Positions 4,367-57,794 are shown, numbered from the stretch's first letter. The stretch: 64,000 nt of DNA from Candidatus Omnitrophota bacterium (GCA_003598135.1 QZKA01000027.1:20788-84787); one strand, 5' to 3'. Program-made: numbers and translations. The notes: generated from the sequence alone by a model not told the origin.

Positions 4367-4393
4367 TTTTTTATACCACAGCCTGAGGATTTT

Positions 4394-4434
4394 CCCCGTA
4401 CCTACTTTTTAGTAGGTACGGGGCTTTAATTTTA
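4394..4434 (+). terminator. Strong rho-independent terminator downstream of pilin paralog 3
   Basis: CCCCGTACCTACT / AGTAGGTACGGGG forms a perfect 13-bp GC-rich stem around a TTTT loop, followed by CTTTAATTTT. Confidence 0.65.
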
Positions 4435-4562
4435 TGCGGGCAGCTAAAAGTATACCCGTTCTTTTTAATATCTAAATTTTCCTTTAGCAATAAATAAAAT
4501 AGAATACTATTGTATTCAGAAATATTTATGATAAAATAGTTTTATTCTTAAGGAGTGCGTGT

Positions 4563-4982: not shown

Positions 4983-4983
4983 G

Positions 4984-5379: not shown

Positions 5380-5383
5380 TGCC

Positions 5384-38661: not shown

Positions 38662-39969
38662 ATGCCTGAACAGCCGGTTGTATTAATTAATCCCCCAAGC
38701 CCTTTTTTGATTAACCAAAAAAGCTTTTCTCCGCTTGGCATACTCTATCTTGCCGCCGAATTGGAAAAAAATAACCTACCCGTGCGGGTTGTCGATTTGG
38801 CGGACTCAGAGAATGATATGGAGGCGGCCTTACGTTCGTATTTGGATGCCGAGCTATTTGGTATCAGCGCAACAACCCCGCAATATCCTTATGCAAGAGC
38901 GATAAAGGATGCGATCAAGAGAGCGCACCCTGAGGCGAAAGTAGTATTGGGTGGCGTTCATGGAACAGACCTCACTGAAAAGTGTCTTAATGACGGGTTT
39001 GATATCGTGGTTAAGGGAGAAGGTGAGAAGGCAATAGTTAAGATCGTGCACGATTTCGCAACGCATTCCCTTGATTACAGGACTTTGCAATTGCCTTATG
39101 AAAAAGATATGGATTCTTTGCCTCTTCCTGCGCGGCACCTGATTCCCCTGAAGGAGTACGGTTATGATATTGATGGTGTACCTGGGGCAAGCGTTATTAC
39201 CAGCAGGGGCTGTCCGTATCATTGCGTTTTTTGTTCAAAAGGCGTCTGGGAACAGGGGGTAAGGCTTCATAGCGTTGAGTACGTCGTAAGGGAGCTGGTC
39301 TCAATCATACAAAACTATACGATTAGCCATTTTCTTTTCCTTGATGATGCCATTAATATTGATAGAAACAGGTTGGTGCGGTTATGCACTGCGATAAAAC
39401 CGCTTGGAATAAAATGGCGTTGCTATGCGCGGGCGGATTTTCACGCCAAGGGTATGCTTATTGCGATGAAGGAAGCAGGTTGCGTGGAGATAGGTGTGGG
39501 CATTGAGAGCGGTTCGCAGAAGATATTAGACATCGTAGGCAAAGGGAGCACTGTGGAAAAGAATACCAGTTTTGTTAAAGAATGCAAATCTGTTGGCGTG
39601 GCGGTGAATGCCTTTGTGATGATTGGGCTACCCGGTGAGACGCATGAAACGGTCGAAGCCACAAAAAAATGGATAGGAGATGCAATGCCGGATAAGTTTG
39701 GTTTTAATATTTTTATGCCTTATGCTGGCACTCCGGTCTGGCGCAACCTAGAAAAATATGATTTGTGTATCGCAGATATTCCCGAGGAACATAGCTGGGT
39801 AAAGGGCAGGCCAGGCCAGCACCATTGTTATGTCTCGACAAACGAGTTGAGCTCTAGTGAAATCTTAAGGTTGTTCAACGAGTTGTTTGATTATTACACA
39901 CAATTGTTACATTGGAGGCCCGGAGTAGGCAGGGTAAAGCAGACTGTCCCGGGTAACACAGTATGCTGA
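38662..39969 (+). CDS. Cobalamin-binding (class B) radical SAM protein, copy 2
   Basis: N-terminal B12-binding domain (VVLINPPSP...PLGILYLAAEL) and a canonical cluster motif, RGCPYHCVFCSK. Confidence 0.85.
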   Translation: MPEQPVVLINPPSPFLINQKSFSPLGILYLAAELEKNNLPVRVVDLADSENDMEAALRSYLDAELFGISATTPQYPYARAIKDAIKRAHPEAKVVLGGVHGTDLTEKCLNDGFDIVVKGEGEKAIVKIVHDFATHSLDYRTLQLPYEKDMDSLPLPARHLIPLKEYGYDIDGVPGASVITSRGCPYHCVFCSKGVWEQGVRLHSVEYVVRELVSIIQNYTISHFLFLDDAINIDRNRLVRLCTAIKPLGIKWRCYARADFHAKGMLIAMKEAGCVEIGVGIESGSQKILDIVGKGSTVEKNTSFVKECKSVGVAVNAFVMIGLPGETHETVEATKKWIGDAMPDKFGFNIFMPYAGTPVWRNLEKYDLCIADIPEEHSWVKGRPGQHHCYVSTNELSSSEILRLFNELFDYYTQLLHWRPGVGRVKQTVPGNTVC

Positions 39970-41483
39970 TAGGCGCGTTGTTGTTTTTTGTGGGGTATCT
40001 GTTTCAGTGCTGGCCGCGGTTTTTTAACCCTTATTTCGGGGTGGATGTATGGAGGAATCTTTCTATCGCCGATGAAATCAGAAAGTATAAGCGGCTGCCC
40101 AGGCGCAATCTTCCCAAATATATGTTAAAGGGGCCGTTTGACTATCCGCCGCTGCTCAATATATTTCTGTCGCTTTTTTCTAAAAAGTGGCTAGAAAAAT
40201 ACCAGGGTTTTATCGCGCCTCTTTTTGATGCAATCACCGGATTTATCCTTTTTTCATTCACCCTTTTCCTTACGAGAGAAGTCGCAGTTGCGCTCCTGGC
40301 GCAGCTTCTTTTTGTTACTAATCCCCTTGCAGCTATGGAAAACGCAAGCCTTACTGCGAGAAGCCTGGGTAATTTGACTTTTTCATTGACATTCCTTTTT
40401 ATTATTCTTTTCACCGTATTCCATTCATGGGCCTATTTTCTGTTGGCAATCATTTTTGGATTTTTGGTGATTTTTGCCCAGAAAATGGCATCCCAGGCCT
40501 TGATTATGATATCCGTTATCTTTATGCTCTTCAGAATGGATGTTTCCTATGTTCTTATCGTTTCTCTAAGTATACTGGTTGCACTCTTATTGGCAGGCGA
40601 TTTGTATGTCCGGATCGCCAGTGGACATCTTTCTGTGCTTAGATACTTTAGAAAGATTCTTGATAATCGCTATGCGCATCAGGTATCAGGCAATATTGCA
40701 TTAAAAGGCGGGAATGATTTCATCGATAAAGTTAAGTCTTATGTGAATAAACAACCGTTTTTGGCAATGCTGGCCAGTGCTCCTCTTGTCACCATGGGGT
40801 TGGTGCTGTCCTTGTGGGGACTAATTTTTATACCGAAGAGTTTTTCGATACCCCCCGAGCTTTATCTTTACCATATATTGTTTCAATTTTGTCTATGGCT
40901 AATAGTACTGTATTACTTTGGGATTCTTACCGCGCAAGTGCGCGCTATACAATTTTTAGGCGAGGGCATGAAATACTTGGTCTTTGCAAGTTTCCCTGCT
41001 TCTTTTATCGTGGCATACGTGTCGTTTTATGAAATCCGGTTAAACGCTAATTTCATTCCTTTAGTGTTTAGTTTGGTTGTTGTCGCAATGAGCGTAGCCC
41101 AAACGGTTTTCCTTCAGAAGAAAGGGATCGTCAACGACCGGCAGCGCACCCTTACCCCGGTTTTGCGGCAAGTTATGGATTTTTTACAGAATGAGCCTGG
41201 CGAAATCCGTCTGGCGACTATACCTTTTTCGCTCTCGGATATCATTGCCTATTTTACAAAGTGTAATGTTTTTTCATCCGATTCGGCGTTTGTCTTGGGC
41301 AATGATCCTGCGTATACTGACTTTTATCCGGTGTTAAAGAGGCCGCTTGAAGAAATCCTAAGCGTCCACAATATCAATTATTTGCTGATAGATAAGAACT
41401 ATGTGAACCCTGAGGCTTTGCAACTTGCGGCGGGCTCAAAGATTGTCCTTGAGAGAGAGAACCTGTGTCTGATAAAACGCTAA
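39963..41483 (+). CDS. Polytopic membrane protein (about 12 TM helices plus a C-terminal soluble domain of about 110 aa); possible GT-C-fold glycosyltransferase or polymerase/ligase-like protein
   Basis: The first extracytoplasmic loop reads GVDVWRNLSIADEIRKYKR, a DE..R(Y/K) motif reminiscent of the ArnT/PMT loop-1 DE(x)RY. There is no WWDYG motif. Topology only; no confident family assignment. Confidence 0.4.
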   Translation: MLIGALLFFVGYLFQCWPRFFNPYFGVDVWRNLSIADEIRKYKRLPRRNLPKYMLKGPFDYPPLLNIFLSLFSKKWLEKYQGFIAPLFDAITGFILFSFTLFLTREVAVALLAQLLFVTNPLAAMENASLTARSLGNLTFSLTFLFIILFTVFHSWAYFLLAIIFGFLVIFAQKMASQALIMISVIFMLFRMDVSYVLIVSLSILVALLLAGDLYVRIASGHLSVLRYFRKILDNRYAHQVSGNIALKGGNDFIDKVKSYVNKQPFLAMLASAPLVTMGLVLSLWGLIFIPKSFSIPPELYLYHILFQFCLWLIVLYYFGILTAQVRAIQFLGEGMKYLVFASFPASFIVAYVSFYEIRLNANFIPLVFSLVVVAMSVAQTVFLQKKGIVNDRQRTLTPVLRQVMDFLQNEPGEIRLATIPFSLSDIIAYFTKCNVFSSDSAFVLGNDPAYTDFYPVLKRPLEEILSVHNINYLLIDKNYVNPEALQLAAGSKIVLERENLCLIKR

Positions 41484-42724
41484 ATACCAATTTCAGAGTT
41501 TCGTTATTGCGGTGTCAGTCAGCAAAGCAGATACGGCAAAAGCTATATGCGGCCCTTGTTTCTTTTTCGGATATTTTTCCGACCTCTAAAGATGCGCATA
41601 TCCTAATCAAGCCGAATTTAAACAGCAACATGAACGCGTTAACAGGCAATACGACTGATTTGAGGCTACTGGATGCGCTTTTAAGCTACTTGCGCGATCA
41701 AGGGTATGGCGCTATTACGATAGGGGAAGGAACCAGTAGCGGCTTTCATAGAGAAAAAATCAATATATTCACTCGTCTTTGCATTGACAAGCTGGCTAGG
41801 CGCTTCAATGCGAAACTGCTCGATCTTAATTATGCCCCTTATGAGTATGTCGAGTTTGAGCACGGGGAAAAAGCAGCCGTGGCTCGAATATGCAAGGAAG
41901 CGGATTTTTTTATCAACCTTCCTAAATTAAAGACGCATTTTGAGGCCCTTCTTTCTGTGTGTTTGAAAAATATGATGGGTGCGTTAGTGGGCCTTCCCAA
42001 CAAACAAAAGACCCACCGCAGCCTTTTTAAAAATATTCTCAATCTCAATAAATTCGTAAAGCCGCATTTGCACATTATTGACGGCCTTATTGCCATGGAG
42101 GGCACAGGTCCTTCATCAGGGACTCCGATCAAGACTGATGTGGTGCTTATTGGCACCGATCCATATCTGTTGGATTTAGCGTGTGCTAAAATCGCAGGCT
42201 TTGATTATAAAGAGATTCCCTATTTGAGGTTGGCAGAAGAGCGAGGCATCATTAATCAAGATTATTTAAATTTTGTTGAAGCGTTTATCCCTAAAGAAGT
42301 TATCAGGATTTTCAAAAGGCCACACGTCAACTCGCTAGTCAGGTTCGTTAATCATCCTAATTGGCAGTATAGTTTTATCAAAATAAGGCTATCTCCTTTA
42401 GTGAATAAGCTGTTTTCTTTTAAAAGCTTTGGGAGGCTGCTTAATGCGGCAGGCCTACGCCAGGATGTTTTTGACAAGCAGGATTTGTGCCTTAAGGATA
42501 TCTATTTTGAGGCCTCGTTGTGCGATAACTGTAAAAAGTGCCAAGCCTATTGTCCGGTTGGTCTTGTTTTGCCTGAACAGTTACATCCGCTGCATGAACA
42601 GTGTATCGGCTGCCTTTATTGTTTTTTGGTCTGTCCTAAAAAGGCAATCAAAATAAAGGGAACCCTTGGGTTTTTTAAGGAGCAGTTAAAACGTTACGAC
42701 AACATTACGCGCTCAATAGCATAG
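41465..42724 (+). CDS. DUF362 domain protein fused to a C-terminal di-[4Fe-4S] ferredoxin domain
   Basis: DUF362 signatures (ILIKPNLN, KTH, NMMG, IIDGLIAMEGTGPSSGTP) plus two CxxCxxCxxxCP motifs (CDNCKKCQAYCP; CIGCLYCFLVCP). The start codon is uncertain; a GTG at 41465 overlaps the upstream gene by 19 nt. Confidence 0.7.
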   Translation: MSDKTLNTNFRVSLLRCQSAKQIRQKLYAALVSFSDIFPTSKDAHILIKPNLNSNMNALTGNTTDLRLLDALLSYLRDQGYGAITIGEGTSSGFHREKINIFTRLCIDKLARRFNAKLLDLNYAPYEYVEFEHGEKAAVARICKEADFFINLPKLKTHFEALLSVCLKNMMGALVGLPNKQKTHRSLFKNILNLNKFVKPHLHIIDGLIAMEGTGPSSGTPIKTDVVLIGTDPYLLDLACAKIAGFDYKEIPYLRLAEERGIINQDYLNFVEAFIPKEVIRIFKRPHVNSLVRFVNHPNWQYSFIKIRLSPLVNKLFSFKSFGRLLNAAGLRQDVFDKQDLCLKDIYFEASLCDNCKKCQAYCPVGLVLPEQLHPLHEQCIGCLYCFLVCPKKAIKIKGTLGFFKEQLKRYDNITRSIA

Positions 42725-42740: not shown

Positions 42741-43754
42741 ATGATTAGAATAGGCGTAATCGGTTGCGGATACTGGGGGCCTAACCTTATCAGGAATTTC
42801 AGTGAAGTCAGGGACGCGCACGTGATCGTCTGTGCAGACGTTAGGGAGGACCGCTTACAATTTGTAAAACAAAGATACCCGGCTGTTGAGGTTACGAAAG
42901 ATTACAAGAGGCTGTTGCAGCGTAAAGATATTGACGCGGTAAGCATTGCGACGCCAGCGTCAACCCATTTTTCTCTTGCGCGCGAGGCCCTTTCGTACAA
43001 TAAGCACGTGCTTATAGAAAAGCCTATGACTAAGACCTCAGGTCAAGCAGAAGAGCTTATACGAGCGGCAAAAAGCAAGAAAAGGGTTTTGATGGTCGGC
43101 CATACCTTTGAGTATGCGGGAGCAGTGCGCAAGATCAGAGAGCTCTTGAGCCGCGGGGAAATCGGCGATATCTTTTATTTTGATTCAACCAGGGCAAATT
43201 TGGGCCTTTTCCAGAAAGACGTCAATGTTATTTGGGACCTTGCTCCTCATGATCTCTCTATTATGCTCTACGCACTCAAACTGCATCCTGTTCGGGTACT
43301 GGCGGTAGGAAGCGCCTTTGTCAATTCTTCGATAGAGGATATTTGCTATATAACTTTGTTTTTTCCTAAGAAGATCATCGGGCATATACATATTAGTTGG
43401 CTGGCGCCTGTCAAATTTAGACGCACGGTTATTGCGGGGAGCAGGAAAATGATCGTATATGATGATGTCGAGAATATTGAAAAGATAAAGGTGTTTGAAC
43501 GCGGAGTCACGATTAAAGAAAACAACGGGCCCAAAGGGATACTGGAACGCCAGCTCTTTTACCAGATGGGAGACGTTTGGAGTCCCCGGATTGACACTCA
43601 GGAGCCCTTAAAAATCGAATGCGAGCATTTTATTGATTGCGTCAAAAAAGGCAAGACGCCTTCCAGTGATGGGAAAAATGGCCTTGAGATCGTGAGGATT
43701 CTGGAGGCGGTGGATGAATCGCTTAAGGAGGGCGGGAAAATAATAGATATTTAG
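42741..43754 (+). CDS. Gfo/Idh/MocA-family oxidoreductase, copy 2
   Basis: IRIGVIGCGYWGPNLIRNF and EKPMT motifs. About 45% identical by eye to copy 1. Confidence 0.8.
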   Translation: MIRIGVIGCGYWGPNLIRNFSEVRDAHVIVCADVREDRLQFVKQRYPAVEVTKDYKRLLQRKDIDAVSIATPASTHFSLAREALSYNKHVLIEKPMTKTSGQAEELIRAAKSKKRVLMVGHTFEYAGAVRKIRELLSRGEIGDIFYFDSTRANLGLFQKDVNVIWDLAPHDLSIMLYALKLHPVRVLAVGSAFVNSSIEDICYITLFFPKKIIGHIHISWLAPVKFRRTVIAGSRKMIVYDDVENIEKIKVFERGVTIKENNGPKGILERQLFYQMGDVWSPRIDTQEPLKIECEHFIDCVKKGKTPSSDGKNGLEIVRILEAVDESLKEGGKIIDI

Positions 43755-44483
43755 ATGGATGGACGGCTAAACCAGAAAGAACAAGTAGGTGTAAGTATTA
43801 TTCTGCCCGCTTTCAACGAGCGGAATAACCTTAAAACGGTGGTTGAATCCGTGATTGCCTCTGTTGCTTGCGCTGTGAATACGTACGAAGTTATCATAGT
43901 TGATGACGGAAGCAATGACGGGACCGGTGAAGTGGCGCGTTTATTGACAAGCCTGCCAAATGTAAAGTTTTTTCGGCACGAGGCCAATTTGGGGATGGGT
44001 GAGGCGGTCAAGACAGGCATCCGTCACGCTGTGTTTCCGATAGTAATGGATATCCCTTGCGATAATCAGTTTAATGCGAAAGATATTTTGTCATTTATCG
44101 AAAAAATTAAAGTCGCCGATATCGTGGTGGGGTATCGGATCAATAAAGCCCAGGGATTCAGGCGGAAATTTTTTAGCGGATTCAATATCCTGCTGCTTAA
44201 GGTACTTTTTGGGCTCAGGCTTAAGGACCCTACATGGGTGAAAATGTGCAGGAAACAAATTTTTGACAGCATCGGAATAGAATCTAAAGGATTTTTCTGG
44301 GAGACGGAAGTTCTGGTAAAGGCTAAGAATCAAGGGCTAAGAATCGAAGAAGTGCCCACGACCATGCAGCCAAGGCTTAGCGGCCAGTCAAAGGGAAATA
44401 GTTTTTTTAGGGCTGTTGATGTATTGTTCTCAATGTTACGCTTGAAAACTGCTTTTGTATTTTCAAATTTTCCGAAGAGATGA
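43755..44483 (+). CDS. GT2 glycosyltransferase, Dpm1-like (polyprenyl-phosphate sugar synthase type)
   Basis: VSIILPAFNERNNL...VIIVDDGSNDGT. Length 242 aa. The start abuts the Gfo-2 stop (TAGATG). Confidence 0.8.
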   Translation: MDGRLNQKEQVGVSIILPAFNERNNLKTVVESVIASVACAVNTYEVIIVDDGSNDGTGEVARLLTSLPNVKFFRHEANLGMGEAVKTGIRHAVFPIVMDIPCDNQFNAKDILSFIEKIKVADIVVGYRINKAQGFRRKFFSGFNILLLKVLFGLRLKDPTWVKMCRKQIFDSIGIESKGFFWETEVLVKAKNQGLRIEEVPTTMQPRLSGQSKGNSFFRAVDVLFSMLRLKTAFVFSNFPKR

Positions 44484-45871
44484 AAGTTGCGCTAATAAAC
44501 CCTTCAGTACAAAAGGTAATCGAACGTCGCTATGACAGGCCGGTATTTCCACACTTGGGGCTTGGCTATATTGCCTCTTATTTGCGTAAGCGTGACGTTG
44601 ATTGCCATGTGGTAGACGCAAAGATGGAAGGCTTAAGTCTTCCTGGGCTTTTGGGGCGCTTGAAAGAAATCAGGCCGCATTTAGTCGGCTTGACATCTAT
44701 GACGCACGAAATAGGCAGTGTGCATTGCGTTGCCAAGCGGATAAGGGAATTATTTCCAGATGCCAAGATTGCTTTGGGTGGAGTGCATGCAACTTTCTTA
44801 CCCGCAGAAACTTTGCGTGATTATCCAGAATTTGACTTTGTAGTTTCCGGGGAAGGTGAAGAGACTTTTTTTGATCTTTATAACACGTTATCCTGCGGTA
44901 AACCGAACGTAAGTACTGTTGCAGGCTTAAGTTTTCTTGAGGGTGGTACTATCAAAACGAATCCTTCCCGGGAGAAGATCTACAATCTTGATGCTCTGCC
45001 TTTTCCTGACTGGGAAAATTTTCCTGTGGCAAGGGAATATCCGGTGATGACAAGTAGGGGATGTCCGTTTGAGTGTATTTTTTGCGCCAACCCTAACGGA
45101 AGGGTCTTGCGCGCGCGTTCCGCTGAAAGTGTAGTAAGTGAGTTCGAATGGGTAGTGAATAGGTTTCATCCCCAAAGGATTGTTTTCTGGGATGAAGGCT
45201 TGACGTTTGACCGAAGGAGGGCAGAAGCAATTTTTGATGCACTGATTAAGAAAGGTTTGCAGAAGAAGGTAAAATGGTATGCTCAGACCCATGTCTTGAG
45301 TGTCGATTACCTTCTTTTTAAAAAGATGAAAGAGGCAGGTTGTGTTTCTATCGGGTTAGGGATTGAGTCTGGCAATGAAAAAATCCTATCCCGCCTTCAG
45401 AAGAAGACAAATATTGCAAAGATTAAAATGGCCGTCAAAGATGCCAAAAGAGCGGGCTTGCCGGTTGAGGGGTATTTTATTTTTGGCCATCCCTATGAAA
45501 CGAAAGAAACCGCCATTGATACCATTCGGTTTGCAGTAAAGCTTAACCCCGAATATCCTGTATTCGGTATTATGGTTCCTTATCCAGGCACCGAGGTCCT
45601 GCGTATGGCTCAGAAGGGAGAAGGGGATTACCGTTTGCTTTCAAAAGATTGGTCTGACTATAATAAACAACTGGGCCATGCACTTGAGCTTGCCCATTTG
45701 AATCGCCGCCAGCTTGAGCTATTTCAGCTTAAGGGATATATATATGTGTTTATCTGTAACTTAAGACTAATAAGCCTAGTGAGGTTCTTTTTTAAGTACA
45801 GAAAAGAAGCGGTTGCCTTTATGAAAAAAATGCTGTTACGAAAGGAAAATCATGGACCTGAGGCAATTTAA
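44480..45871 (+). CDS. Cobalamin-binding (class B) radical SAM protein, copy 3
   Basis: B12-binding N-terminus (KVALINPS...LGLGYIASYL) and TSRGCPFECIFCANP. Its start overlaps the upstream GT2 stop. Confidence 0.85.
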   Translation: MKVALINPSVQKVIERRYDRPVFPHLGLGYIASYLRKRDVDCHVVDAKMEGLSLPGLLGRLKEIRPHLVGLTSMTHEIGSVHCVAKRIRELFPDAKIALGGVHATFLPAETLRDYPEFDFVVSGEGEETFFDLYNTLSCGKPNVSTVAGLSFLEGGTIKTNPSREKIYNLDALPFPDWENFPVAREYPVMTSRGCPFECIFCANPNGRVLRARSAESVVSEFEWVVNRFHPQRIVFWDEGLTFDRRRAEAIFDALIKKGLQKKVKWYAQTHVLSVDYLLFKKMKEAGCVSIGLGIESGNEKILSRLQKKTNIAKIKMAVKDAKRAGLPVEGYFIFGHPYETKETAIDTIRFAVKLNPEYPVFGIMVPYPGTEVLRMAQKGEGDYRLLSKDWSDYNKQLGHALELAHLNRRQLELFQLKGYIYVFICNLRLISLVRFFFKYRKEAVAFMKKMLLRKENHGPEAI

Positions 45872-46907
45872 CCCCTTAAAGGTATTAAACCATTGGGAGA
45901 CGCTTAAGGTGGTTATCGAAGGGAAGAACCCTTATCCGGTCTCCTGCGAAATTGACCCGAGCAATATCTGTAACCATAATTGTATCTGGTGTATTAATGA
46001 CCGTTTTAGAAAGTCGAACAAAGCAATGATTCCAAAAGAGTTAATGTGTAGGATCATTAAGGAAATTGCTGCGTGTGGCGTAAAGTCCATTGCGTTTACG
46101 GGCGGAGGAGAGCCGTTAATGAACCCGGCAAGCATAGAGGCTATTCAGTTGACGAGACGAAAGCGGATGGATGTCGGAATTGTAACTAATGGCGAGCTTC
46201 TCGATCCTGAGAAATGCCGGGTTATTGTGGATAATTGTAGTTATGTTCGTATAAGCCTTGATGCCGGTACCCGCAAGACGCATACCGTTGTCCACGCGCC
46301 CCTTAACAAGCGACAGGATGTGTATAGAAAAATCCTGGACAATATAGGTTTACTCGTAAAATACCGGCAGAAAAATAAAAGGAATATTACGATAGGGATT
46401 GGATATTTGGTAAATTTAGATAATTATCACGAAATAGCCAGGGCTGCGAAATTGGTACGGGATTCAGGTGTTGATTATATGCAGATCCGTCCTGCATTCA
46501 TGCCTGGAAAGCAGCTTTCCGAAAGAATCCGTTTTGAGGCAGAGCGTTTGATCCAAGAAACTCTTGCGTTATCCGATGGGCGGTTTTATGTGTTTCCGAT
46601 TCTGCACCGTTTCGATGAGGTAATAAACCTTGACCGTGCATACGACCGTTGCTTGGGCCACGGCCTCGTGGGAGTAGTTGCGGCAAACGCAAAGATGTAT
46701 ATCTGCTGTCAGCTAAGGGGGGAGGAGGCATTTTGTATCGGCGACCTGCGCCGGGCATCATTTTCTCAAATATGGAAAGGCAAAAGGAGGAAGTCAGTAA
46801 TTAAGTCGATAAACCTCGACCGTTGCCCTCCTTGTCGTTACAACAAATATAACGAAATCTTGGATTATCTTGCGAGTGAAAATAAGACACACAAAAATTT
46901 TCTATAA
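45852..46907 (+). CDS. Radical SAM protein without a B12 domain, with a C-terminal Cys cluster (SPASM/twitch-like); paralog a
   Basis: CNHNCIWC is the CxxxCxxC cluster motif, near the N-terminus. C-terminal cysteines sit at CPPCRYNKYNE. The N-terminus MDLRQFN is shared with paralog a' at 47860. Confidence 0.75.
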   Translation: MDLRQFNPLKVLNHWETLKVVIEGKNPYPVSCEIDPSNICNHNCIWCINDRFRKSNKAMIPKELMCRIIKEIAACGVKSIAFTGGGEPLMNPASIEAIQLTRRKRMDVGIVTNGELLDPEKCRVIVDNCSYVRISLDAGTRKTHTVVHAPLNKRQDVYRKILDNIGLLVKYRQKNKRNITIGIGYLVNLDNYHEIARAAKLVRDSGVDYMQIRPAFMPGKQLSERIRFEAERLIQETLALSDGRFYVFPILHRFDEVINLDRAYDRCLGHGLVGVVAANAKMYICCQLRGEEAFCIGDLRRASFSQIWKGKRRKSVIKSINLDRCPPCRYNKYNEILDYLASENKTHKNFL

Positions 46908-46910
46908 CGT

Positions 46911-47879
46911 ATGGAACTAAAAGGAAAAAACATTCTAGTTACCGGAGGTACGGGTTTCCTGGGCAGCTACATTGTCCAGCGTTGCCTTGATGAGAAGGCG
47001 CGGGTGCGGGTTTTTTCTACGGGAGCGCAGCTAGACAATATAAGGCATCTTTTAAAGAACCCAAGGCTGCATTTTATCGCATCTGATATGAGCGATGCTG
47101 CTTCTTTGGGGAAGGCGGTGAGAGGGGTTGACCTGGTGTTTCATTTCGCCTCTTTTACCAAGACCCAAGAATCGTATCAATACCCCATGAAGGATTTCCA
47201 GACCAATGTGGTGGGCTCGATGCTTCTTCTGGAGGCGATGAGGGCTCACGGAGTGAAACAAATTGTTTTTGCTTCTACGGGAAAGGTGTATGGCCAGCCC
47301 CGCTATTCCCCGGTGGACGAAAATCATCCTATCAGCCCCCAGGAACCTTATAGCGTAGGTAAATATTCGATAGAAAGGTATATCTTGCTTTACCACAAGC
47401 TATACCAGATGAATTACCTCATACTAAGAATATTCGGCATTTATGGCCCCCGGCAACTCCCTAAACCCGGTTCTCTGGTGGGTGTGATCAGCATCCTCGT
47501 TGAAAATATATTAAAATACGGGAAAGTTGACATTTATGGCAACGGCTCGCTTAAAAGGGATTTTCTTTATATCGATGATTTTGTGGAATTTTGCTGCGCT
47601 CTCATAAAAAGAAACCGCTGGCAGCATATACTCAACGTTGCTTCCGGAAAGACTGTCGACCTAAACGGGGTCTTAAAAATCATCTCCAAGGAAATTTACC
47701 CCGATACATTTAAGGTTAATTATAAGCCTTCCTTAAAGAGCGACATAGACCTTTGTCCGGATGTTTCTTTATTAAAGAAAATTTCTTGCTACAAACCTAA
47801 GGTAACCCTACGGAGCGGGATCTCTCGCTATATAGCCTGGTATAAGGACATAAAAAGACATGGATCTGCAGCAGTTTAA
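46911..47879 (+). CDS. NAD-dependent epimerase/dehydratase (extended SDR)
   Basis: ILVTGGTGFLGSYIV plus an SDR Tyr (YSVGK). Confidence 0.75.
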   Translation: MELKGKNILVTGGTGFLGSYIVQRCLDEKARVRVFSTGAQLDNIRHLLKNPRLHFIASDMSDAASLGKAVRGVDLVFHFASFTKTQESYQYPMKDFQTNVVGSMLLLEAMRAHGVKQIVFASTGKVYGQPRYSPVDENHPISPQEPYSVGKYSIERYILLYHKLYQMNYLILRIFGIYGPRQLPKPGSLVGVISILVENILKYGKVDIYGNGSLKRDFLYIDDFVEFCCALIKRNRWQHILNVASGKTVDLNGVLKIISKEIYPDTFKVNYKPSLKSDIDLCPDVSLLKKISCYKPKVTLRSGISRYIAWYKDIKRHGSAAV

Positions 47880-48915
47880 TAGCTACAAAATATTAACACA
47901 CCTGGGAACGATTCGTAAATTCTCAAGGGGCAATAATCCCTTTCCTGTTTCCTGCGAAATTGACCCGAGCAATCTATGCAACCATGATTGCCTCTGGTGT
48001 TATTTCGTTGACAGCCGTAAAGGCACCAGGACAAACCTGAAAAAAGAAACCCTGCTTAGTTTAATTGATGACCTGGCTAAGGGAGGCACTAAGTCTGTTA
48101 CGCTTACCGGGGGAGGCGAGCCCCTGGTCAATCCCGCCACGATGGAAGCCATTGCCAGGACGCATGCAAAGGGAATGCGCGTCGGCCTGGTAACCAATGG
48201 CGGGCTCTTGGATGAAGGAAAAAACAAGGTTATTGTTTCTTGCTGTGATTTTGTCAGGATAAGCCTTGATGCGGTTGACCGGAAATCGCATAGTAAGTTG
48301 CATAAGCCGCATAACCCTACGGCGGATAATTTCGAGATGGTCCTTAAGAATCTTTCTTCTTTGGTGGCACTGCGCAGGAAGTTACGAAAAAAAATAACCA
48401 TAGGAATCGGTTTTCTCGTACATAGCGATAACTATAGAAAACTTTCATCTTTAGCCTCATGGCTTAAAAAAGCGGGCGCGGATTACCTGCAGATTAGGCC
48501 AATCTTTATACCGGGAAATGAGGCGATTACCAGGGTTTGGGTAACTGCCTATAAAGAGATCCGCAAGGCAATTGCCTTGACAGATCGTTCATTTTATGTG
48601 TTTCCCATAAAGCAGCGCTACGAAGAAATTATGAGCCGGCATAAAAATTATAGTTGTTGTAATATTCACAATTTGTTATCGGTTGTTGGTGCTGATGCAA
48701 ACGTATATATGTGTAGCCTATTCCGTGGTGATGGCCGGTTCAGTTTTGGCAGCCTTTATGAGAATTCGTTTGCTGAAATCTGGAACGGCAAAAGAAGGAA
48801 AGAGGTACTAAGGTCATTTGATATCAGAAAGTGTCCGGCGTGTCGTTATAATACGTATAACGAGATCCTCCAGTATGTATTGAACCCTAAGAAGCCGCAT
48901 GCAGAATTTTTATGA
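47860..48915 (+). CDS. Radical SAM protein, paralog a' of 45852..46907
   Basis: CNHDCLWC, with C-terminal CPACRYNTYNE. A 24-nt stretch (tcctgcgaaattgacccgagcaat) is identical in the two paralog genes. Confidence 0.75.
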   Translation: MDLQQFNSYKILTHLGTIRKFSRGNNPFPVSCEIDPSNLCNHDCLWCYFVDSRKGTRTNLKKETLLSLIDDLAKGGTKSVTLTGGGEPLVNPATMEAIARTHAKGMRVGLVTNGGLLDEGKNKVIVSCCDFVRISLDAVDRKSHSKLHKPHNPTADNFEMVLKNLSSLVALRRKLRKKITIGIGFLVHSDNYRKLSSLASWLKKAGADYLQIRPIFIPGNEAITRVWVTAYKEIRKAIALTDRSFYVFPIKQRYEEIMSRHKNYSCCNIHNLLSVVGADANVYMCSLFRGDGRFSFGSLYENSFAEIWNGKRRKEVLRSFDIRKCPACRYNTYNEILQYVLNPKKPHAEFL

Positions 48916-50069
48916 TGAAAATAGCCGATATAAAGGCGGTCGTAGTAACCCATGTGACTATTTCAGAGCCTTCTTTGGCTGAAGTATACGGCCAGTGTCA
49001 CGCAATAGCCGACTTTTTAAAAGAAAATGCGCAAGAGCTACTTTTTATCCGTCATCCGCTTAACGGAAAATTTTGCTCCCGGGCAGAACGATTCTCAAAA
49101 GATACCGTTGTCCCAACTGATACGGGCAAGAATACTGCTTCGGGGATAATGAGATACATCGCCGATGTTTTGACTACCCTGAAGGTAACATACTCGTCAA
49201 GCAAAAGCTGGGATGTGTTCATCGGCGTAAATAGCCTTAATGCATTCAGCGGAATTCTGCTTAAGCGGATGAAGAAGGTAAAGCGGGTTATTTTCTATAC
49301 TGCAGACTACGTTCCGTTACGTTTTAAGAACAGGATTATGAATTCAACATACCATTGGTTTGATAGGTTTTGCATAAGGAACGCTGATTTTGTCTGGAAT
49401 ATTTCTCAGGCCCAGGTTGCGATAAGGCGTACACAAGGCGTTTCAGATGCGCACAATATTCATGTGCCCCACGGCATAGATACGGAAAAGATAAAGCCCC
49501 AGCCAGTTGAGAATATAGACAGGTTCAGCTTTGTTATCGCAGCCAACCTTACCCGGGCTTTCAATCATACGCTTATTCTGGATGCATTTAGCGAGACGGT
49601 AAAACGGATACCTCACGCCAGGTTATTTATTGTCGGTACAGGTGAGTCAGAACAAGAGATTCAACATTACATCAATCTAAAAAATATAGAAAATTCAGTT
49701 TTTATGGAGGGTTGGATGCCTCATGAGAAATTACTCGCTTTTCTATCGCGCTGCGGGGTAGGGATAGCCATTTATACTTCTGAGTGCAGTTGGACTAATT
49801 TCTCCGATTCTTTTAAAACCAAGGAATACCTCGGTTGCGGCTGCCCTGTTATTATTTCCGGCGCCCAAGGCGCCATTAGTGAGGCGAAAGAAAGCAATGC
49901 CCTTATCGTTGTAGAGCAGACAAAAGACTCCCTCTCGCAGGCAATGTTGAAAATGCTGCAAGACGAAACGTTCTATATGCAATGCCGTAAGAACGCAATT
50001 AATTTCATGAAAAACCTTGATTGGCGCGCGATTTACGGGCGCAGCCTCAAGTTTCTTAATTCAAACTAA
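48912..50069 (+). CDS. GT4-family (GT-B fold) glycosyltransferase
   Basis: C-terminal E..K motif region (EGWMPHEKLLAFLSRCGVGIAIYTS...KTKEYLGCGCPVIIS), typical of retaining GT4 enzymes. Confidence 0.6.
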   Translation: MMKIADIKAVVVTHVTISEPSLAEVYGQCHAIADFLKENAQELLFIRHPLNGKFCSRAERFSKDTVVPTDTGKNTASGIMRYIADVLTTLKVTYSSSKSWDVFIGVNSLNAFSGILLKRMKKVKRVIFYTADYVPLRFKNRIMNSTYHWFDRFCIRNADFVWNISQAQVAIRRTQGVSDAHNIHVPHGIDTEKIKPQPVENIDRFSFVIAANLTRAFNHTLILDAFSETVKRIPHARLFIVGTGESEQEIQHYINLKNIENSVFMEGWMPHEKLLAFLSRCGVGIAIYTSECSWTNFSDSFKTKEYLGCGCPVIISGAQGAISEAKESNALIVVEQTKDSLSQAMLKMLQDETFYMQCRKNAINFMKNLDWRAIYGRSLKFLNSN

Positions 50070-56264: not shown

Positions 56265-57794
56265 ATGACCATATTTATACAAACTTCCGACGATGCGCAG
56301 GATTTAAAATATGTAGCATTTATTTGCGAGACATTTAAACACGTTACCAAGACGGCGGTTGAGTTCAGGTTTCGAAAAGAAAACGATCCCATAGAATCGC
56401 AAGATTGTCTTATCAATTACGGGTTGCCGCCGAAAGAAGGCTGTATCAATATCCCAAGGGTGCGCTCTCGCATGCAGGAAGGTTATTGTTACGGCAAGTG
56501 CGATAGTTCATTCTTTACCGATGCGCGCCTGAGCGATACCGCACTACCCGTATACCGGCAGCTTCTCAGTAACCAGCAGGTCAGGGGTAGCGTAGTTTTT
56601 TCTGAGGCAAGCACCAAAGCGCCCTTAATTAGCAGCGCAGGCAGCGGGACCAAGGGAATCAATGTCCATTTCGACTTTTTTTACAACATCTTTTGTTTTT
56701 TGGGGAATATCCCTGATATTGCCTTTGAAGAGAAGCACGGGATTGCACACTCTTACGCAAAATTTATACGCCGAGATCAGGCGTTTTACGGTAAACCTTG
56801 GGTCAATTATTTTTTTATCATATTTCAGTCGTTGATAGAAGCGGTTTCAGGTAAAAGCCTTGATTGCCAAAAGTCGCCTCGCCGTTTAGGTTTTCAGGTT
56901 CTTATGATGTATGATGTCGATGCGATAAGAAAGACGCCGATCATGCAGGCAAAACAACTTTTGTTTATTGTCATTAACCTTTTCCGATCCCTTTTTGAAA
57001 TGGATTTTAAGAAATCCCGTGAAGAGGGGAAGCGTTTTTTTCGCTTTATTTTTTTTCGTTGTAATTATTTATGTTTTGAAGTAATTGCCTCAGGTGAGGA
57101 GTCGTTAAAGGTCCCTTCAATATTTAATATTTATCAAAAAATTAGATACGGGAGGATAAAGAAAATAAAAAGCCTGATCTTTGACCCCGCATATGATATT
57201 TCCAAAGAAGCGGTTTTAAAGGATTCGATTAAAATGTTGATTCGCAAAGGAAAAGGTATTGGGTTGCACTCAGGCTATAATTCCTATGCCTCAAGCGGTG
57301 AACTGTTATTACAGAAGTCCATGCTTTCTCGGACCCTAAATTATTCGGTAAGGGGGTTACGGCAGCACTGGTTGAGGTTTTCTGTTAAGAATACCTGGAA
57401 AGCGCAAGAGGAGGCAGGGTTTTTGTATGATGCCAGTTTTGGTTTTAACGATGCGATAGGGTTCAGGTCCGGGCTGGCGCATCCTTACTTTCCCTATTCG
57501 CACGAAGAAGGGAGAAGTTACAGGATTTTGGAGGTTCCGCCTGTATTGATGGATTCAACGCTCATGCATTATGGCAATCGTACAGAGGAGAGTGCATTTA
57601 CAGAAGCGGTCTGCGTGCTTAAAGAGGTGAAAAAATTCGCCGGAACCTGCGTGATGGTTTGGCATCAGGAATCTTTCTGTCGGGATTATGGATGGGGGAA
57701 CCTGTTGAAACGAATCCTTGGCTGGGTTGCCGATAGCGGAGGCAGCTTTATTTCAGAACAAGAGCTACTATCGCAATACAATCTTTTACATTAA
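56265..57794 (+). CDS. Hypothetical protein; the C-terminal half is weakly similar to a CE4/NodB-type polysaccharide deacetylase (DUF3473-like)
   Basis: Motif order YDVDA ... GLHSGYN ... HPYFPY ... VWHQ loosely follows the CE4 motif series (DxD, HSxxN, RxPY, ...H). The N-terminal roughly 200 aa are unrecognised. Confidence 0.3.
   Translation: MTIFIQTSDDAQDLKYVAFICETFKHVTKTAVEFRFRKENDPIESQDCLINYGLPPKEGCINIPRVRSRMQEGYCYGKCDSSFFTDARLSDTALPVYRQLLSNQQVRGSVVFSEASTKAPLISSAGSGTKGINVHFDFFYNIFCFLGNIPDIAFEEKHGIAHSYAKFIRRDQAFYGKPWVNYFFIIFQSLIEAVSGKSLDCQKSPRRLGFQVLMMYDVDAIRKTPIMQAKQLLFIVINLFRSLFEMDFKKSREEGKRFFRFIFFRCNYLCFEVIASGEESLKVPSIFNIYQKIRYGRIKKIKSLIFDPAYDISKEAVLKDSIKMLIRKGKGIGLHSGYNSYASSGELLLQKSMLSRTLNYSVRGLRQHWLRFSVKNTWKAQEEAGFLYDASFGFNDAIGFRSGLAHPYFPYSHEEGRSYRILEVPPVLMDSTLMHYGNRTEESAFTEAVCVLKEVKKFAGTCVMVWHQESFCRDYGWGNLLKRILGWVADSGGSFISEQELLSQYNLLH

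What the first reader, a model, noticed from the sequence alone, without database searches (positions are those of the whole stretch)
45852..48915. Duplicated non-B12 radical SAM paralogs flanking an SDR epimerase/dehydratase
ORFs 45852-46907 and 47860-48915 are clear paralogs. They share the N-terminus MDL(R/Q)QFN, the cluster motif CNH(N/D)C(I/L)WC, the C-terminal CP(P/A)CRYN(K/T)YNEIL and a 24-nt identical DNA stretch. They bracket an NAD-dependent SDR at 46911-47879. The SDR start overlaps the second rSAM gene, and the upstream rSAM abuts the SDR. An rSAM-SDR-rSAM sandwich suggests sequential radical and NAD-dependent redox steps on one sugar nucleotide. Known sugar rSAMs such as DesII, BtrN and AprD4 do dehydration, deamination and dehydrogenation.
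Basis: partly seen in the sequence, partly recalled or inferred. Interest (0 to 1): 0.6.

Follow-up and report, generated by a model that had tools for sequence, protein, structure and literature searches.

The report
Twin radical SAM sugar-tailoring enzymes
Two related iron-sulfur "radical" enzymes flanking a sugar reductase are real, conserved across bacterial phyla inside cell-surface sugar gene clusters, and belong to a large family nobody has characterised, so they probably make an unusual sugar by chemistry still to be worked out.

Summary
ORFs 45852-46907 and 47860-48915 are 351-aa paralogs (47% identity, no gaps, E 8e-126) flanking an extended SDR (46911-47879). One detail is reversed: the SDR's end, not its start, overlaps the second rSAM.

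Both are radical SAM enzymes with CX3CX2C plus four invariant C-terminal Cys (C-X17-C-X39-C-X2-C). That means one auxiliary cluster, so twitch rather than full SPASM. No curated family reaches its cut-off. The closest solved fold is DesII, a TDP-sugar radical SAM enzyme.

The duplication is old. A and B form separate clades, each containing Omnitrophota and Nitrospirota members.

The order A-SDR-B-GT4 is syntenic in at least five genomes. There it is preceded by a DUF362-ferredoxin, a new GT-C glycosyltransferase and a B12-rSAM. Single-copy relatives in many phyla and in phages sit beside glycosyltransferases. No peptide substrate is in sight.

Natural fusions link the domain to sugar enzymes. 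One polypeptide reads rSAM-DegT aminotransferase-rSAM, and another joins the domain to PGM/PMM.

The SDR orthologs lack the NAD-specifying Asp, so a NADP(H) ketoreductase is likely.

Best reading: a keto-sugar relay in envelope glycan synthesis. The exact reaction and substrate are unknown. This is a new variant of a known kind, of moderate interest.

The parts
45852..46907 (+). rSAM-A: 351-aa non-B12 radical SAM enzyme with a twitch-type C-terminal domain (A clade of the family)
   Evidence: ORF. Pfam Radical_SAM 77.6 bits, SPASM 27.2 bits. Invariant C40/C44/C47 plus C267/C285/C325/C328. AF2 pLDDT 93.3. Top PDB fold is DesII, TMq 0.70-0.73. Orthologs at 57-88% identity in Omnitrophota and Nitrospirota.
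46911..47879 (+). Extended SDR (NDP-sugar epimerase/reductase type), probably NADP(H)-dependent ketoreductase
   Evidence: PF01370 181 bits. Best NCBIfam models are all below cut-off. Best PDB relatives are short GalE-type epimerases, 4ZRM at 9.5e-44. It has STGKVYG and Y147xxxK151, and no D-E dehydratase pair. All six cassette orthologs lack the Asp at the end of beta2.
47860..48915 (+). rSAM-B: 351-aa paralog (B clade), tightly coupled to the downstream GT4
   Evidence: 47% identical to rSAM-A. Pfam Radical_SAM 72.6 bits, SPASM 37.1 bits. It forms a separate clade with Omnitrophota and Nitrospirota members. Ser replaces Cys at position 286. It has a 4-nt overlap with GT4.
48912..50069 (+). 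GT4-type glycosyltransferase, conserved downstream partner of rSAM-B
   Evidence: PF00534 and PF13692. It is syntenic after rSAM-B in L001, L003, L010, L169 and L170.
41465..42724 (+). DUF362 domain fused to a 2x[4Fe-4S] ferredoxin; conserved upstream partner of rSAM-A and a candidate electron donor
   Evidence: PF04015 151 bits plus Fer4 families. It lies directly upstream of rSAM-A in L001, L003 and L169. DUF362 shares Pfam clan CL0471 with LarA (PMC11770544).
39963..41483 (+). 506-aa membrane protein with GT-C glycosyltransferase fold and no Pfam family; part of the conserved cassette
   Evidence: No Pfam or PDB sequence hit. AF2 pLDDT 92.5. Foldseek hits are STT3, AglB, PglB, DPY19, ArnT and AftA. 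It is syntenic in L001, L003 and L010.
38662..39969 (+). B12-binding radical SAM enzyme, first gene of the conserved cassette
   Evidence: PF02310 and PF04055. Orthologs sit upstream of the GT-C gene in L001, L003 and L010.
42741..45871 (+). Lineage-specific insertion into the cassette: GFO/IDH/MocA oxidoreductase (42741-43754), DPM1-like GT2 (43755-44483) and B12-rSAM (44480-45871)
   Evidence: Pfam. It is present between the DUF362-Fd gene and rSAM-A only in the window and its 88%-identical relatives L010 and L011, and absent in L001, L003 and L169.
45942..45965 (+). 24-nt stretch identical to 47950-47973 (encodes SCEIDPSN just before the cluster motif)
   Evidence: Longest common substring computed.
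47860..47879 (+). 20-nt overlap of the SDR stop with the rSAM-B start. The same 20-nt overlap occurs at 45852-45871 (B12-rSAM/rSAM-A), where the upstream TAA stop lies inside the QFN codons
   Evidence: Same-length overlaps occur in L001 (SDR/rSAM-B) and L003 (DUF362-Fd/rSAM-A) by the coordinates.

Best explanation
rSAM-A and rSAM-B are two anciently diverged members of a large, uncharacterised family of about 350-aa radical SAM enzymes. The family has a DesII-like core plus a twitch domain, which holds one fully Cys-ligated auxiliary [4Fe-4S] cluster. These enzymes tailor a sugar during cell-envelope glycan synthesis. Proposed mechanism (inferred, not shown): each enzyme reductively cleaves SAM, and the 5'-deoxyadenosyl radical abstracts a hydrogen from a sugar carbon that bears a hydroxyl or amino group. 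The substrate radical then resolves to a keto sugar. This could happen by loss of an electron to the auxiliary cluster (BtrN-type dehydrogenation) or by elimination of a neighbouring group (DesII/AprD4-type). The SDR between the two genes, probably using NADP(H), reduces that ketone. The net result is an epimerised or deoxygenated sugar, on which the second rSAM acts. The finished sugar is passed to the translationally coupled GT4. It may also go, through a DPM1-like GT2, to the cassette's GT-C transferase for use outside the membrane. The DUF362-ferredoxin upstream is the likely low-potential electron donor or acceptor for the clusters. What is shown: paralogy, motifs, fold, synteny, glycan context and domain fusions. 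What is inferred: substrate class, order of steps, reaction type and the ferredoxin's role.
For: Paralogy and intact catalytic motifs in both copies. Seven invariant Cys, three for the SAM cluster and four in a C-X17-C-X39-C-X2-C pattern around a predicted beta-hairpin. A four-Cys auxiliary cluster matches BtrN, which performs a two-electron oxidation, rather than MoaA with its three-Cys open site (PMC9012708). The six best PDB fold matches are all DesII, a TDP-sugar rSAM, at E 7e-16 and TMq 0.70-0.73; BlsE and the viperins also rank high. The profile aligns to DesII over residues 17-215. A-SDR-B-GT4 is syntenic in the window, L010, L001, L003 and L169, spanning two phyla, with translational overlaps. 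A and B are separate clades, each with both phyla, so their functions are not redundant. Direct neighbours of 40-odd single-copy relatives are enriched in GT2, GT1/4 and GT9 glycosyltransferases, other rSAMs, methyltransferases and sugar SDRs. Fusions: P0121 is family rSAM, then DegT/DnrJ/EryC1 aminotransferase, then family rSAM, in one 1631-aa ORF. P0157 joins the family rSAM to PGM/PMM. P0261 joins an FkbM methyltransferase to the family rSAM. The enzyme in the middle of both sandwiches (SDR or DegT) consumes keto sugars. The cassette SDR keeps the S/T-Y-K triad but lacks the NAD-specifying Asp in all six orthologs. The surrounding 40 kb encodes ManC, Ugd, RmlA/B/D-like enzymes, WecB, Wzx, GTs and an AsnB-like protein.
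Against: No biochemical data exist for any family member. No curated model reaches its threshold: DesII TIGR04426 scores 39-56 bits against 450, and the best hit, TIGR04317, scores about 100 against 380. Peptide-modifying SPASM/twitch enzymes (SkfB, CteB, SuiB, anSME) score only slightly worse than DesII in sequence and fold searches, so the DesII lead is modest. DesII itself has no auxiliary cluster and has a large N-terminal domain that is absent here (PMC11434129). A and B can lie in separate loci (L170 and L171), so a strict A-SDR-B order is not obligatory. The SDR is not a universal neighbour of the family. The NADP(H) inference rests on a single sequence position. A nucleotide-sugar substrate is not distinguished from a lipid-linked one.
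Confidence: 0.6

Rival explanations
1. The rSAMs act after glycosyl transfer, on a sugar already attached to a lipid or glycan. That could be a polyprenyl-phosphate sugar made by the DPM1-like GT2, or a glycolipid head group. The reaction could be ring contraction or epimerisation, as proposed for Cds, HpnJ and AviX12, rather than tailoring of a soluble nucleotide sugar.
For: Family members are very often directly next to, or overlapping, a glycosyltransferase. rSAM-B/GT4 is the tightest pair. Every cassette neighbourhood holds small DPM1-like GT2s and GT-C enzymes, including PMT_2, YfhO, DUF2079 and the new GT-C at 39963. Neighbouring B12-rSAMs score best against HpnJ and BchE models. Cds and HpnJ are precedents for rSAMs that modify lipid-bound hexoses (PMC13459092).
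Against: The best fold match is a nucleotide-sugar enzyme. The fusions to DegT aminotransferase and PGM/PMM point to soluble sugar-phosphate or NDP-sugar metabolism. The proteins have no predicted membrane segment.
Confidence: 0.2
2. They are peptide or protein maturases of the SPASM/twitch class (sactisynthase-, anSME- or PqqE-like) acting on a ribosomal peptide or on a neighbouring protein.
For: Pfam SPASM matches exceed the gathering score. SkfB is the best profile hit in PDB at 1e-14, and CteB, SuiB and anSME are close fold matches. JGI auto-annotations call some members 'sulfatase maturation enzyme AslB'.
Against: All peptide-maturase NCBIfam models score 40-60 bits against cut-offs of 265-855. 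Only about 30 residues (two helices) precede the core, so there is no RRE/PqqD-like domain. Only one auxiliary cluster is possible. Genes in the cassette abut or overlap, which leaves no room for a precursor gene. The context is glycan synthesis in every phylum examined. No sulfatase is nearby.
Confidence: 0.05
3. They mature a cofactor or metal site of the adjacent DUF362-ferredoxin (a LarA-clan protein) or another enzyme, as proposed for the TIGR04317 tungsten-enzyme maturase.
For: TIGR04317 is the best NCBIfam hit for both paralogs at 98-100 bits, aligned nearly full-length for B. The DUF362-Fd gene lies directly upstream of rSAM-A, overlapping it in L003 and L169. LarA-clan proteins use an elaborate synthesised cofactor (PMC11770544).
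Against: The score is far below the 380-bit cut-off. DUF362 accompanies only the A/B cassette and was not found beside the many single-copy family members. This model does not explain the GT, SDR, DegT and PGM associations or fusions.
Confidence: 0.07
4. A and B catalyse the same reaction on two different sugars or acceptors. They would be parallel branches, A with the SDR and B with GT4, rather than consecutive steps on one molecule.
For: Only seven alignment columns strictly separate the A and B clades. In one sample the A+SDR and B+GT4 modules lie on different contigs. The cluster contains many other duplicated enzyme sets: 3 GFO, 4 small GT2 and 5 B12-rSAM.
Against: The sandwich order and translational coupling are kept in five genomes of two phyla. 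P0121 fuses two family domains around one aminotransferase, which is most simply read as consecutive steps.
Confidence: 0.15

Closest known systems
DesII (TDP-4-amino-4,6-dideoxy-D-glucose deaminase / TDP-quinovose dehydrogenase, Streptomyces venezuelae; PDB 8HZV, 8HZY)
   Same: It is the best structural match of the rSAM-A model: six top hits, E 7e-16, TMq 0.70-0.73. The profile aligns over the core, including the GG(G/L)EPLxNP, R-x-S and beta6 motifs. It is a radical SAM enzyme acting on a nucleotide sugar, producing a keto sugar and working between DegT-type and other sugar enzymes. It has a C-terminal beta-hairpin plus helices.
   Different: Sequence identity is only 14-16%. TIGR04426 scores 39-56 bits against a 450 cut-off. 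DesII has a roughly 130-aa six-helix N-terminal domain and a single cluster with no auxiliary Cys (PMC11434129). The present family has about 30 N-terminal residues and four invariant auxiliary Cys.
BtrN (2-deoxy-scyllo-inosamine dehydrogenase; twitch rSAM; PDB 4M7T)
   Same: It is a twitch architecture with one auxiliary [4Fe-4S] cluster ligated by four Cys. It oxidises a carbohydrate-like secondary alcohol to a ketone, and a DegT-family aminotransferase then uses that ketone. This matches the rSAM-DegT-rSAM fusion logic (PMC9012708).
   Different: Sequence relation is weak: profile E 2e-9 over the N-terminal 100 residues only. BtrN is about 250 aa, acts on a free aminocyclitol, and is not among the top fold hits.
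AprD4/AprD3 (radical SAM diol dehydratase plus NADPH-dependent reductase; C3' deoxygenation of aminoglycosides)
   Same: It works as a two-enzyme unit in which an rSAM makes a keto sugar and a nicotinamide-dependent reductase reduces it. That is the working model for rSAM-A plus the SDR.
   Different: AprD4 belongs to the B12-binding-domain-like class. NF033070 matches the neighbouring B12-rSAMs at 84-87 bits against 500, and does not match A or B. No membership is claimed, and the analogy rests on recalled literature.
HygY and NeoN (twitch / radical SAM carbohydrate epimerases)
   Same: They are radical SAM enzymes that invert one sugar stereocentre. HygY is described as a twitch enzyme that becomes a dehydrogenase when one Cys is mutated (title cited in PMC10991966). 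The single Cys/Ser difference between the A and B clades (C286S) invites the same test.
   Different: No sequence or structure of these enzymes was available for comparison. They act on aminoglycoside pseudo-oligosaccharides in Actinobacteria.
Cds and HpnJ (radical SAM ring contraction of lipid-bound hexose)
   Same: They are rSAMs that work together with a glycosyltransferase on a membrane-lipid head group (PMC13459092). HpnJ-like B12-rSAMs surround the cassette.
   Different: HpnJ is a B12-domain rSAM, unlike A and B. Homology of A and B to Cds was not tested.
NCBIfam TIGR04317 (tungsten cofactor oxidoreductase radical SAM maturase)
   Same: It is the best-scoring curated sequence model for both paralogs (E 1e-28), similar in length with a C-terminal Cys-rich domain.
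   Different: It scores 98-100 bits against a 380 cut-off. No aldehyde:ferredoxin oxidoreductase gene is nearby. The function of that family is itself only inferred.

Membership tests
Radical SAM superfamily (PF04055) | CX3CX2C motif for the SAM-binding [4Fe-4S] cluster; Pfam score above the gathering threshold | tested here: met
   C40-X3-C44-X2-C47 is invariant in 40 family members. PF04055 scores 77.6 and 72.6 bits against 29.5.
Radical SAM superfamily (PF04055) | SAM-binding GGE, ribose and beta6 motifs on a partial TIM barrel | tested here: met
   G84-G85-G86-E87-P88, R133/S135/D137 and Y209-x-Q-x-R213-P214 are invariant or nearly so. The AF2 model has six beta/alpha units at pLDDT 93 and aligns to the DesII motifs.
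SPASM subclass (two auxiliary clusters) | Seven-Cys motif including CX2CX5CX3C | tested here: not met
   Only CX2C (C325, C328) is present; the following Cys positions are Y/N (CPPCRYNKYNE). There are four conserved C-terminal Cys in all. The Pfam SPASM model still matches at 27 and 37 bits, because twitch is a truncated SPASM.
Twitch subclass (one auxiliary cluster, BtrN type) | Beta-hairpin flanked by two Cys plus a downstream CX2C, giving four ligands for one [4Fe-4S] cluster | tested here: met
   C267, then hairpin E273-276/E281-283, then C285, then C325-X2-C328, all invariant. The definition and BtrN's four-Cys ligation come from PMC9012708. Actual cluster binding is not testable here.
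DesII (NCBIfam TIGR04426) | Equivalog score of at least 450 bits; N-terminal six-helix domain; single cluster | tested here: not met
   It scores 39.3 and 55.6 bits. The N-terminal domain is absent. Auxiliary Cys are present, unlike DesII. The fold resemblance is nonetheless the best in PDB.
Anaerobic sulfatase maturase (TIGR03942) and RiPP SPASM maturases (PqqE, SkfB, CteB, PapB, others) | Curated score cut-off; two auxiliary clusters; RRE or peptide-binding N-terminal domain (RiPP enzymes); cognate peptide or sulfatase gene | tested here: not met
   It scores 41-42 bits against 349 for TIGR03942, and 40-50 bits against 265-855 for the peptide maturases. Only about 30 residues precede the core. 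No spare intergenic space or small ORF exists in the cassette. No sulfatase is found in the neighbourhoods.
TIGR04317 W_rSAM_matur | Equivalog score of at least 380 bits; adjacency to a tungsten aldehyde oxidoreductase | tested here: not met
   It scores 98.2 and 99.9 bits. No AOR-family gene is in the window region that was annotated.
Extended SDR, NDP-sugar epimerase/dehydratase (PF01370), for ORF 46911-47879 | GxxGxxG Rossmann motif, S/T-Y-K triad, Pfam score above threshold | tested here: met
   GGTGFLGS, S122/T123 and Y147xxxK151 are present. PF01370 scores 180.9 bits against 20.9.
dTDP-glucose 4,6-dehydratase (TIGR01181) / GalE (TIGR01179), for ORF 46911-47879 | Equivalog cut-offs; Asp-Glu pair after the catalytic Ser/Thr (dehydratases); Asp at the end of beta2 binding NAD | tested here: not met
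   It scores 155 against 365 and 133 against 262 bits. The motif is STGKVYG rather than STDEVYG. The Asp at the end of beta2 is replaced by S/C/G in all six cassette orthologs.
GT-C glycosyltransferases, for ORF 39963-41483 | Multi-helix membrane fold of STT3/PglB/ArnT type with a conserved acidic residue in the first external loop | tested here: met
   Foldseek gives 25 PDB hits at E<=1e-3, all GT-C enzymes. G26-x-D28-x-W30 is invariant. No Pfam family matches, so membership holds at the fold level only.

The most novel reading that the evidence does not exclude
The family performs a kind of carbohydrate radical chemistry not yet described. One example would be NAD-independent anaerobic epimerisation, deoxygenation or carbocycle formation on a nucleotide- or polyprenyl-phosphate-linked hexose. 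In this reading two specialised paralogs and a keto-sugar-processing enzyme form a fixed three-step module, with either an SDR or a DegT aminotransferase in the middle. The DUF362-ferredoxin would be its dedicated low-potential redox partner, which would be the first function assigned to DUF362. The product would be an unknown sugar displayed on the envelopes of Omnitrophota and Nitrospirota and, through phage-borne copies, possibly on virions or modified host surfaces.
Probability: 0.2. Interest if true: 0.75.

Novelty: new variant of a known kind. Interest (0 to 1): 0.5.

Why it matters
Radical SAM enzymes that tailor sugars are few and come almost entirely from antibiotic pathways of cultured Actinobacteria and Bacillus (DesII, BtrN, AprD4, BlsE, NeoN, HygY). 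This is a separate family, large (about 2,700 clusters at 50% identity at E<=1e-30) and completely uncharacterised. It is tied to primary cell-envelope glycan synthesis in uncultivated anaerobes of many phyla, in archaea and in phages. It combines a DesII-like core with a BtrN-like auxiliary cluster. The conserved A-SDR-B-GT4 cassette and the single-polypeptide rSAM-DegT-rSAM fusion give concrete, clonable targets for finding new sugar chemistry and the sugars it makes. The same cassette also offers a first functional handle on DUF362 proteins and on a GT-C family that has no Pfam model.

Tried and rejected
- **Literature searches with nothing relevant.** A search for DUF362 together with radical SAM returned nothing. 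Searches on twitch domains plus nucleotide sugars and on Omnitrophota plus radical SAM found no description of this family or cassette.
- **Wasted or blocked literature calls.** A search on HygY/SpeY/twitch was spoiled by unrelated word matches. The HygY paper is not held.
- **PHROGs.** It has no specific family for these proteins, only weak generic rSAM hits.
- **PDB sequence searches.** These gave nothing for the DUF362 domain (only the ferredoxin part matched) or for the 506-aa membrane protein. The latter was resolved only by structure prediction.
- **Catalytic H-donor cysteine.** C129 (at least 90% conserved) lies at the N-terminal end of strand beta4, away from the active-site face, so I do not propose it. 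C286 remains a candidate only.
- **Recent tandem duplication or gene conversion.** I rejected this. In-register nucleotide identity is 55%, and the tree places A and B in separate clades, each holding both phyla. The 24-nt identity falls in the most conserved peptide (SCEIDPSN).
- **Non-coding RNA.** Rfam and tRNA scans of the window found nothing.

Full report
**1. Observation**

The three ORFs exist as described: rSAM-A at 45852-46907, the SDR at 46911-47879 and rSAM-B at 47860-48915, all on the + strand. The two rSAM proteins are both 351 aa. They align end to end at 47% identity with no gap, E 8e-126.

All quoted motifs are present, and the 24-nt identical stretch is confirmed. It lies at 45942-45965 and 47950-47973 and encodes SCEIDPSN. 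In-register nucleotide identity is 55%.

Neither protein has a B12-binding domain, unlike five other rSAMs in the window.

One detail is reversed. The SDR's end, not its start, overlaps rSAM-B's start, by 20 nt. The upstream B12-rSAM overlaps rSAM-A's start by the same 20 nt, with the upstream TAA stop lying inside the conserved Q-F-N codons. By their coordinates, the same overlap length recurs in related genomes. This points to translational coupling.

**2. What the proteins are**

Pfam finds Radical_SAM, a weaker SPASM match and Fer4_12 in both.

In an alignment of 40 family members, seven Cys are invariant. C40/C44/C47 form the SAM-cluster motif. C267, C285, C325 and C328 have the spacing C-X17-C-X39-C-X2-C. 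The CX2CX5CX3C block that defines a full SPASM domain is absent, because only the CX2C remains. The domain can therefore hold one auxiliary cluster ligated by four Cys, which makes it a twitch domain of the BtrN type. MoaA, by contrast, has three Cys and an open iron site (definitions from PMC9012708).

No NCBIfam model reaches its cut-off:
- TIGR04317: about 100 bits against 380.
- DesII: 39-56 bits against 450.
- anSME: about 42 bits against 349.
- Peptide maturases: 40-60 bits against 265-855.

A profile search of PDB sequences gives SkfB, DesII, CteB, BlsE and MoaA, all near 1e-13 to 1e-14.

The AlphaFold model of rSAM-A is confident, with pLDDT 93.3 and pTM 0.91. It shows two short N-terminal helices, a six-stranded partial barrel, and a C-terminal beta-hairpin plus helices. 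In Foldseek against PDB, the six best hits are all DesII at E 7e-16 and TMq 0.70-0.73. They are followed by CteB, SkfB, SuiB, anSME, BlsE, the viperins and MoaA.

DesII acts on TDP-sugars. It has a similar C-terminal hairpin but no auxiliary cluster, and it has a large extra N-terminal domain (PMC11434129). The family is therefore best described as a DesII-like core carrying a BtrN-like auxiliary cluster. It is not a member of either family.

**3. Family size and distribution**

A word-indexed search found 180 relatives. All carry generic or automatic names, from Omnitrophota, Nitrospirota, Schekmanbacteria, Lentisphaerota and Atribacterota.

A scan of one genome per species found 189 relatives, all in MAGs. 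They include Planctomycetota, Elusimicrobiota, Desulfobacterota, Bacillota, Patescibacteria, Iainarchaeota and Methanosarcinales.

An exhaustive profile search of 1.84 billion representatives gave 2,694 clusters at E<=1e-30. Seventy-nine IMG/VR viral contigs also encode relatives.

The window itself comes from a Candidatus Omnitrophota MAG. A neighbouring protein is 100% identical to one with locus tag C4540_05465.

**4. The duplication is old**

In a neighbour-joining tree, A and B fall into separate clades, and each contains Omnitrophota and Nitrospirota members. Only seven columns strictly separate the clades. They include positions 48-49, directly after the cluster motif (IN against YF), and C286S, next to the auxiliary ligand C285. 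The two copies are thus distinct orthologous groups, not a recent tandem copy.

**5. Synteny**

The order DUF362-ferredoxin, rSAM-A, SDR, rSAM-B, GT4 is kept in:
- three Omnitrophota genomes: the window, L010 at 88% identity and L001 at 72%;
- a Nitrospirota MAG (L003, 57%);
- a further assembly (L169).

It is usually preceded by a B12-rSAM and a 505-aa membrane protein.

In the window and its closest relatives, a GFO/IDH/MocA oxidoreductase, a DPM1-like GT2 and a B12-rSAM have been inserted between the DUF362 gene and rSAM-A.

In one sample the modules are split onto two contigs. One carries B12-rSAM, A, B12-rSAM and the SDR. The other carries DegT, SDR, B12-rSAM, B, GT4 and two PMT_2 genes. 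The tightest pairs are therefore A with the SDR and B with GT4.

The membrane protein has no Pfam or PDB sequence match. Its confident model (pLDDT 92.5) matches only GT-C glycosyltransferases: STT3, AglB, PglB, DPY19, ArnT, AftA and ALG9/12.

**6. Context of single-copy relatives**

More distant members (30-50% identity) are single copies:
- in Lentisphaerota, followed by a GT4;
- in another lineage, overlapping a GT2;
- in a phage, between the major capsid and tail genes, after a GT9 and a GT2.

I ran a Pfam census of the immediate same-strand neighbours in about 45 further loci. The commonest families were GT2, GT1/4, GT9, Glyco_trans_1_2, other rSAM/SPASM and B12-rSAM proteins, methyltransferases, sugar SDRs, GFO oxidoreductases and formyltransferases. 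Nothing resembled a RiPP system.

**7. Domain fusions**

- P0121 is one 1,631-aa ORF on a 7.1-kb contig. It reads family rSAM (190-540), DegT/DnrJ/EryC1 aminotransferase (605-931), family rSAM (976-1323), then an unknown tail. This repeats the window's sandwich with a different enzyme in the middle.
- P0157 is a 6,428-aa multi-enzyme protein that places the family domain directly before a PGM/PMM sugar-phosphate mutase.
- P0261 fuses an FkbM methyltransferase to the family domain.
- P0169, P0197 and P0202 string three or four rSAM domains together.

DegT aminotransferases and SDR ketoreductases both consume keto sugars. This is the main reason to think the first radical step produces a ketone.

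**8. The SDR**

Its nearest solved relatives are short GalE-type 4-epimerases, such as 4ZRM at 9.5e-44. It keeps GxxGxxG and the S/T-Y-K triad. It has STGKVYG rather than the Asp-Glu pair of 4,6-dehydratases.

All six cassette orthologs replace the Asp at the end of beta2 with Ser, Cys or Gly, often followed by Arg. That Asp is present in the window's three other SDRs and in the Thermotoga enzyme. From general SDR knowledge this predicts NADP(H) as an exchangeable co-substrate. That would make it a ketoreductase rather than an epimerase with tightly bound NAD+. This is an inference from one position.

**9. Mechanism proposed**

What is shown:
- two intact, diverged twitch rSAMs;
- a keto-sugar-type enzyme between them;
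- coupling to a GT4;
- a dedicated ferredoxin-domain protein and a GT-C enzyme in the same conserved cassette;
- a surrounding 40-kb glycan cluster.

That cluster encodes ManC, Ugd, RmlA/B/D-like enzymes, Wzx, WecB, an AsnB-like protein, GTs, five B12-rSAMs and two further SPASM rSAMs.

What is inferred: each rSAM abstracts a hydrogen from a sugar carbon, and the radical collapses to a ketone. This could be by electron loss to the four-Cys auxiliary cluster, as in BtrN, or by elimination, as in DesII and AprD4. The SDR reduces the ketone, and the second rSAM acts on the product. GT4 then transfers the finished sugar. It may alternatively reach the outside through the DPM1-like GT2 and the GT-C enzyme. 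The DUF362-ferredoxin, whose DUF362 domain shares a Pfam clan with LarA (PMC11770544), is proposed as the redox partner.

I put 0.6 on the general statement. I put about 0.3 on the specific order and on keto-sugar chemistry.

**10. Rivals**

- Action on lipid- or glycan-bound sugar after transfer, as in Cds or HpnJ (PMC13459092), is a serious variant at 0.2.
- Parallel rather than consecutive roles for A and B: 0.15.
- Cofactor maturation for the DUF362 protein: 0.07.
- Peptide or protein maturation: 0.05.

The last two are poorly supported, for the reasons given under each rival explanation.

**11. Novelty and verdict**

No paper in the searchable library describes this family or cassette. 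Sugar-tailoring rSAMs are a known kind. This is a new, large family with a new combination of features and a conserved module architecture, so I rate it a new variant of a known kind.

Interest is moderate at 0.5. Uncharacterised rSAMs in glycan clusters are not surprising in themselves. However, the conserved sandwich, the rSAM-DegT-rSAM fusion, the phage copies and the DUF362 link make it a well-defined target for experiment.

Noticed in passing
L005/L006 10001-11029 (and 79 IMG/VR loci, L090-L168): A family member (P0089, 39% identical to rSAM-A) sits in a phage structural module. The order is portal, protease, SU10-type major capsid, GT9, GT2, rSAM, tail tube, tape measure. Seventy-nine viral contigs encode relatives at up to 49% identity. 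This could mean virion glycosylation or host-surface modification with a radical-tailored sugar.
   Followed up: partly
P0121 (locus L172 2097-6992): A single 1,631-aa ORF reads family rSAM, DegT aminotransferase, family rSAM, then a ~300-aa unknown C-terminal domain. It is a natural fusion that mirrors the window's rSAM-SDR-rSAM order.
   Followed up: yes
P0157 (6,428 aa), P0169, P0197, P0202, P0167: These are giant multi-enzyme proteins. P0157 has poly-Ser linkers and carries the family rSAM domain next to PGM/PMM. P0169, P0197 and P0202 concatenate three or four rSAM/SPASM domains (P0169 also has a B12-binding domain), and P0167 has two Radical_SAM stretches.
   Followed up: partly
P0228 (651 aa); L001 1021-3990: Inteins interrupt rSAM genes. 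In P0228 the insert splits the family domain exactly at the Y-x-C|C auxiliary-cluster site. In L001 a 989-aa B12-rSAM carries Intein_splicing and LAGLIDADG domains.
   Followed up: no
window 39963-41483: A 506-aa membrane protein has no Pfam family, but its confident model has a GT-C glycosyltransferase fold. G26-x-D28-x-W30 is invariant. It appears to be a GT-C family without a Pfam model, conserved in the cassette.
   Followed up: yes
window 41465-42724: A DUF362 (LarA-clan) domain is fused to a two-cluster ferredoxin. It is always directly upstream of rSAM-A in intact cassettes. The function of DUF362 is unknown.
   Followed up: partly
window 31229-63927: This stretch has an exceptional density of radical SAM genes. 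There are five B12-rSAMs (34186, 38662, 44480, 50017, 60589) and four non-B12 rSAMs (45852, 47860, 59602, 62045) in about 30 kb of a glycan cluster. It also holds three GFO/IDH/MocA paralogs (~44% identical), and the whole window holds four small DPM1-like GT2s and four SDRs.
   Followed up: partly
window 35621-36703 and 56265-57794: Two ORFs (360 aa and 509 aa) inside the glycan cluster have no Pfam match at E<=0.001. In the Nitrospirota locus L003, which has a different gene order, a DegT aminotransferase follows the GFO and hexapeptide-transferase genes; no DegT gene was found in the window.
   Followed up: no
window 2531-5923: A tandem array of six short genes has type IV pilin-like N-termini (FTLVE/LIE followed by a hydrophobic helix). 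They look like pilins or pseudopilins.
   Followed up: no
window 45852-45871 and 47860-47879; L001, L003: Both rSAM genes start 20 nt before the stop of the upstream gene. The upstream TAA lies inside the conserved Gln-Phe-Asn codons of the rSAM. As a result, unrelated upstream proteins end in similar tails (HGPEAI and HGSAAV). The same overlap length is seen in other genomes.
   Followed up: partly
L001 3975-4238: An 87-aa PQ-loop/MtN3 (SemiSWEET-like) membrane protein lies inside the related Omnitrophota cluster. It could be a small sugar or lipid-linked-sugar translocator.
   Followed up: no
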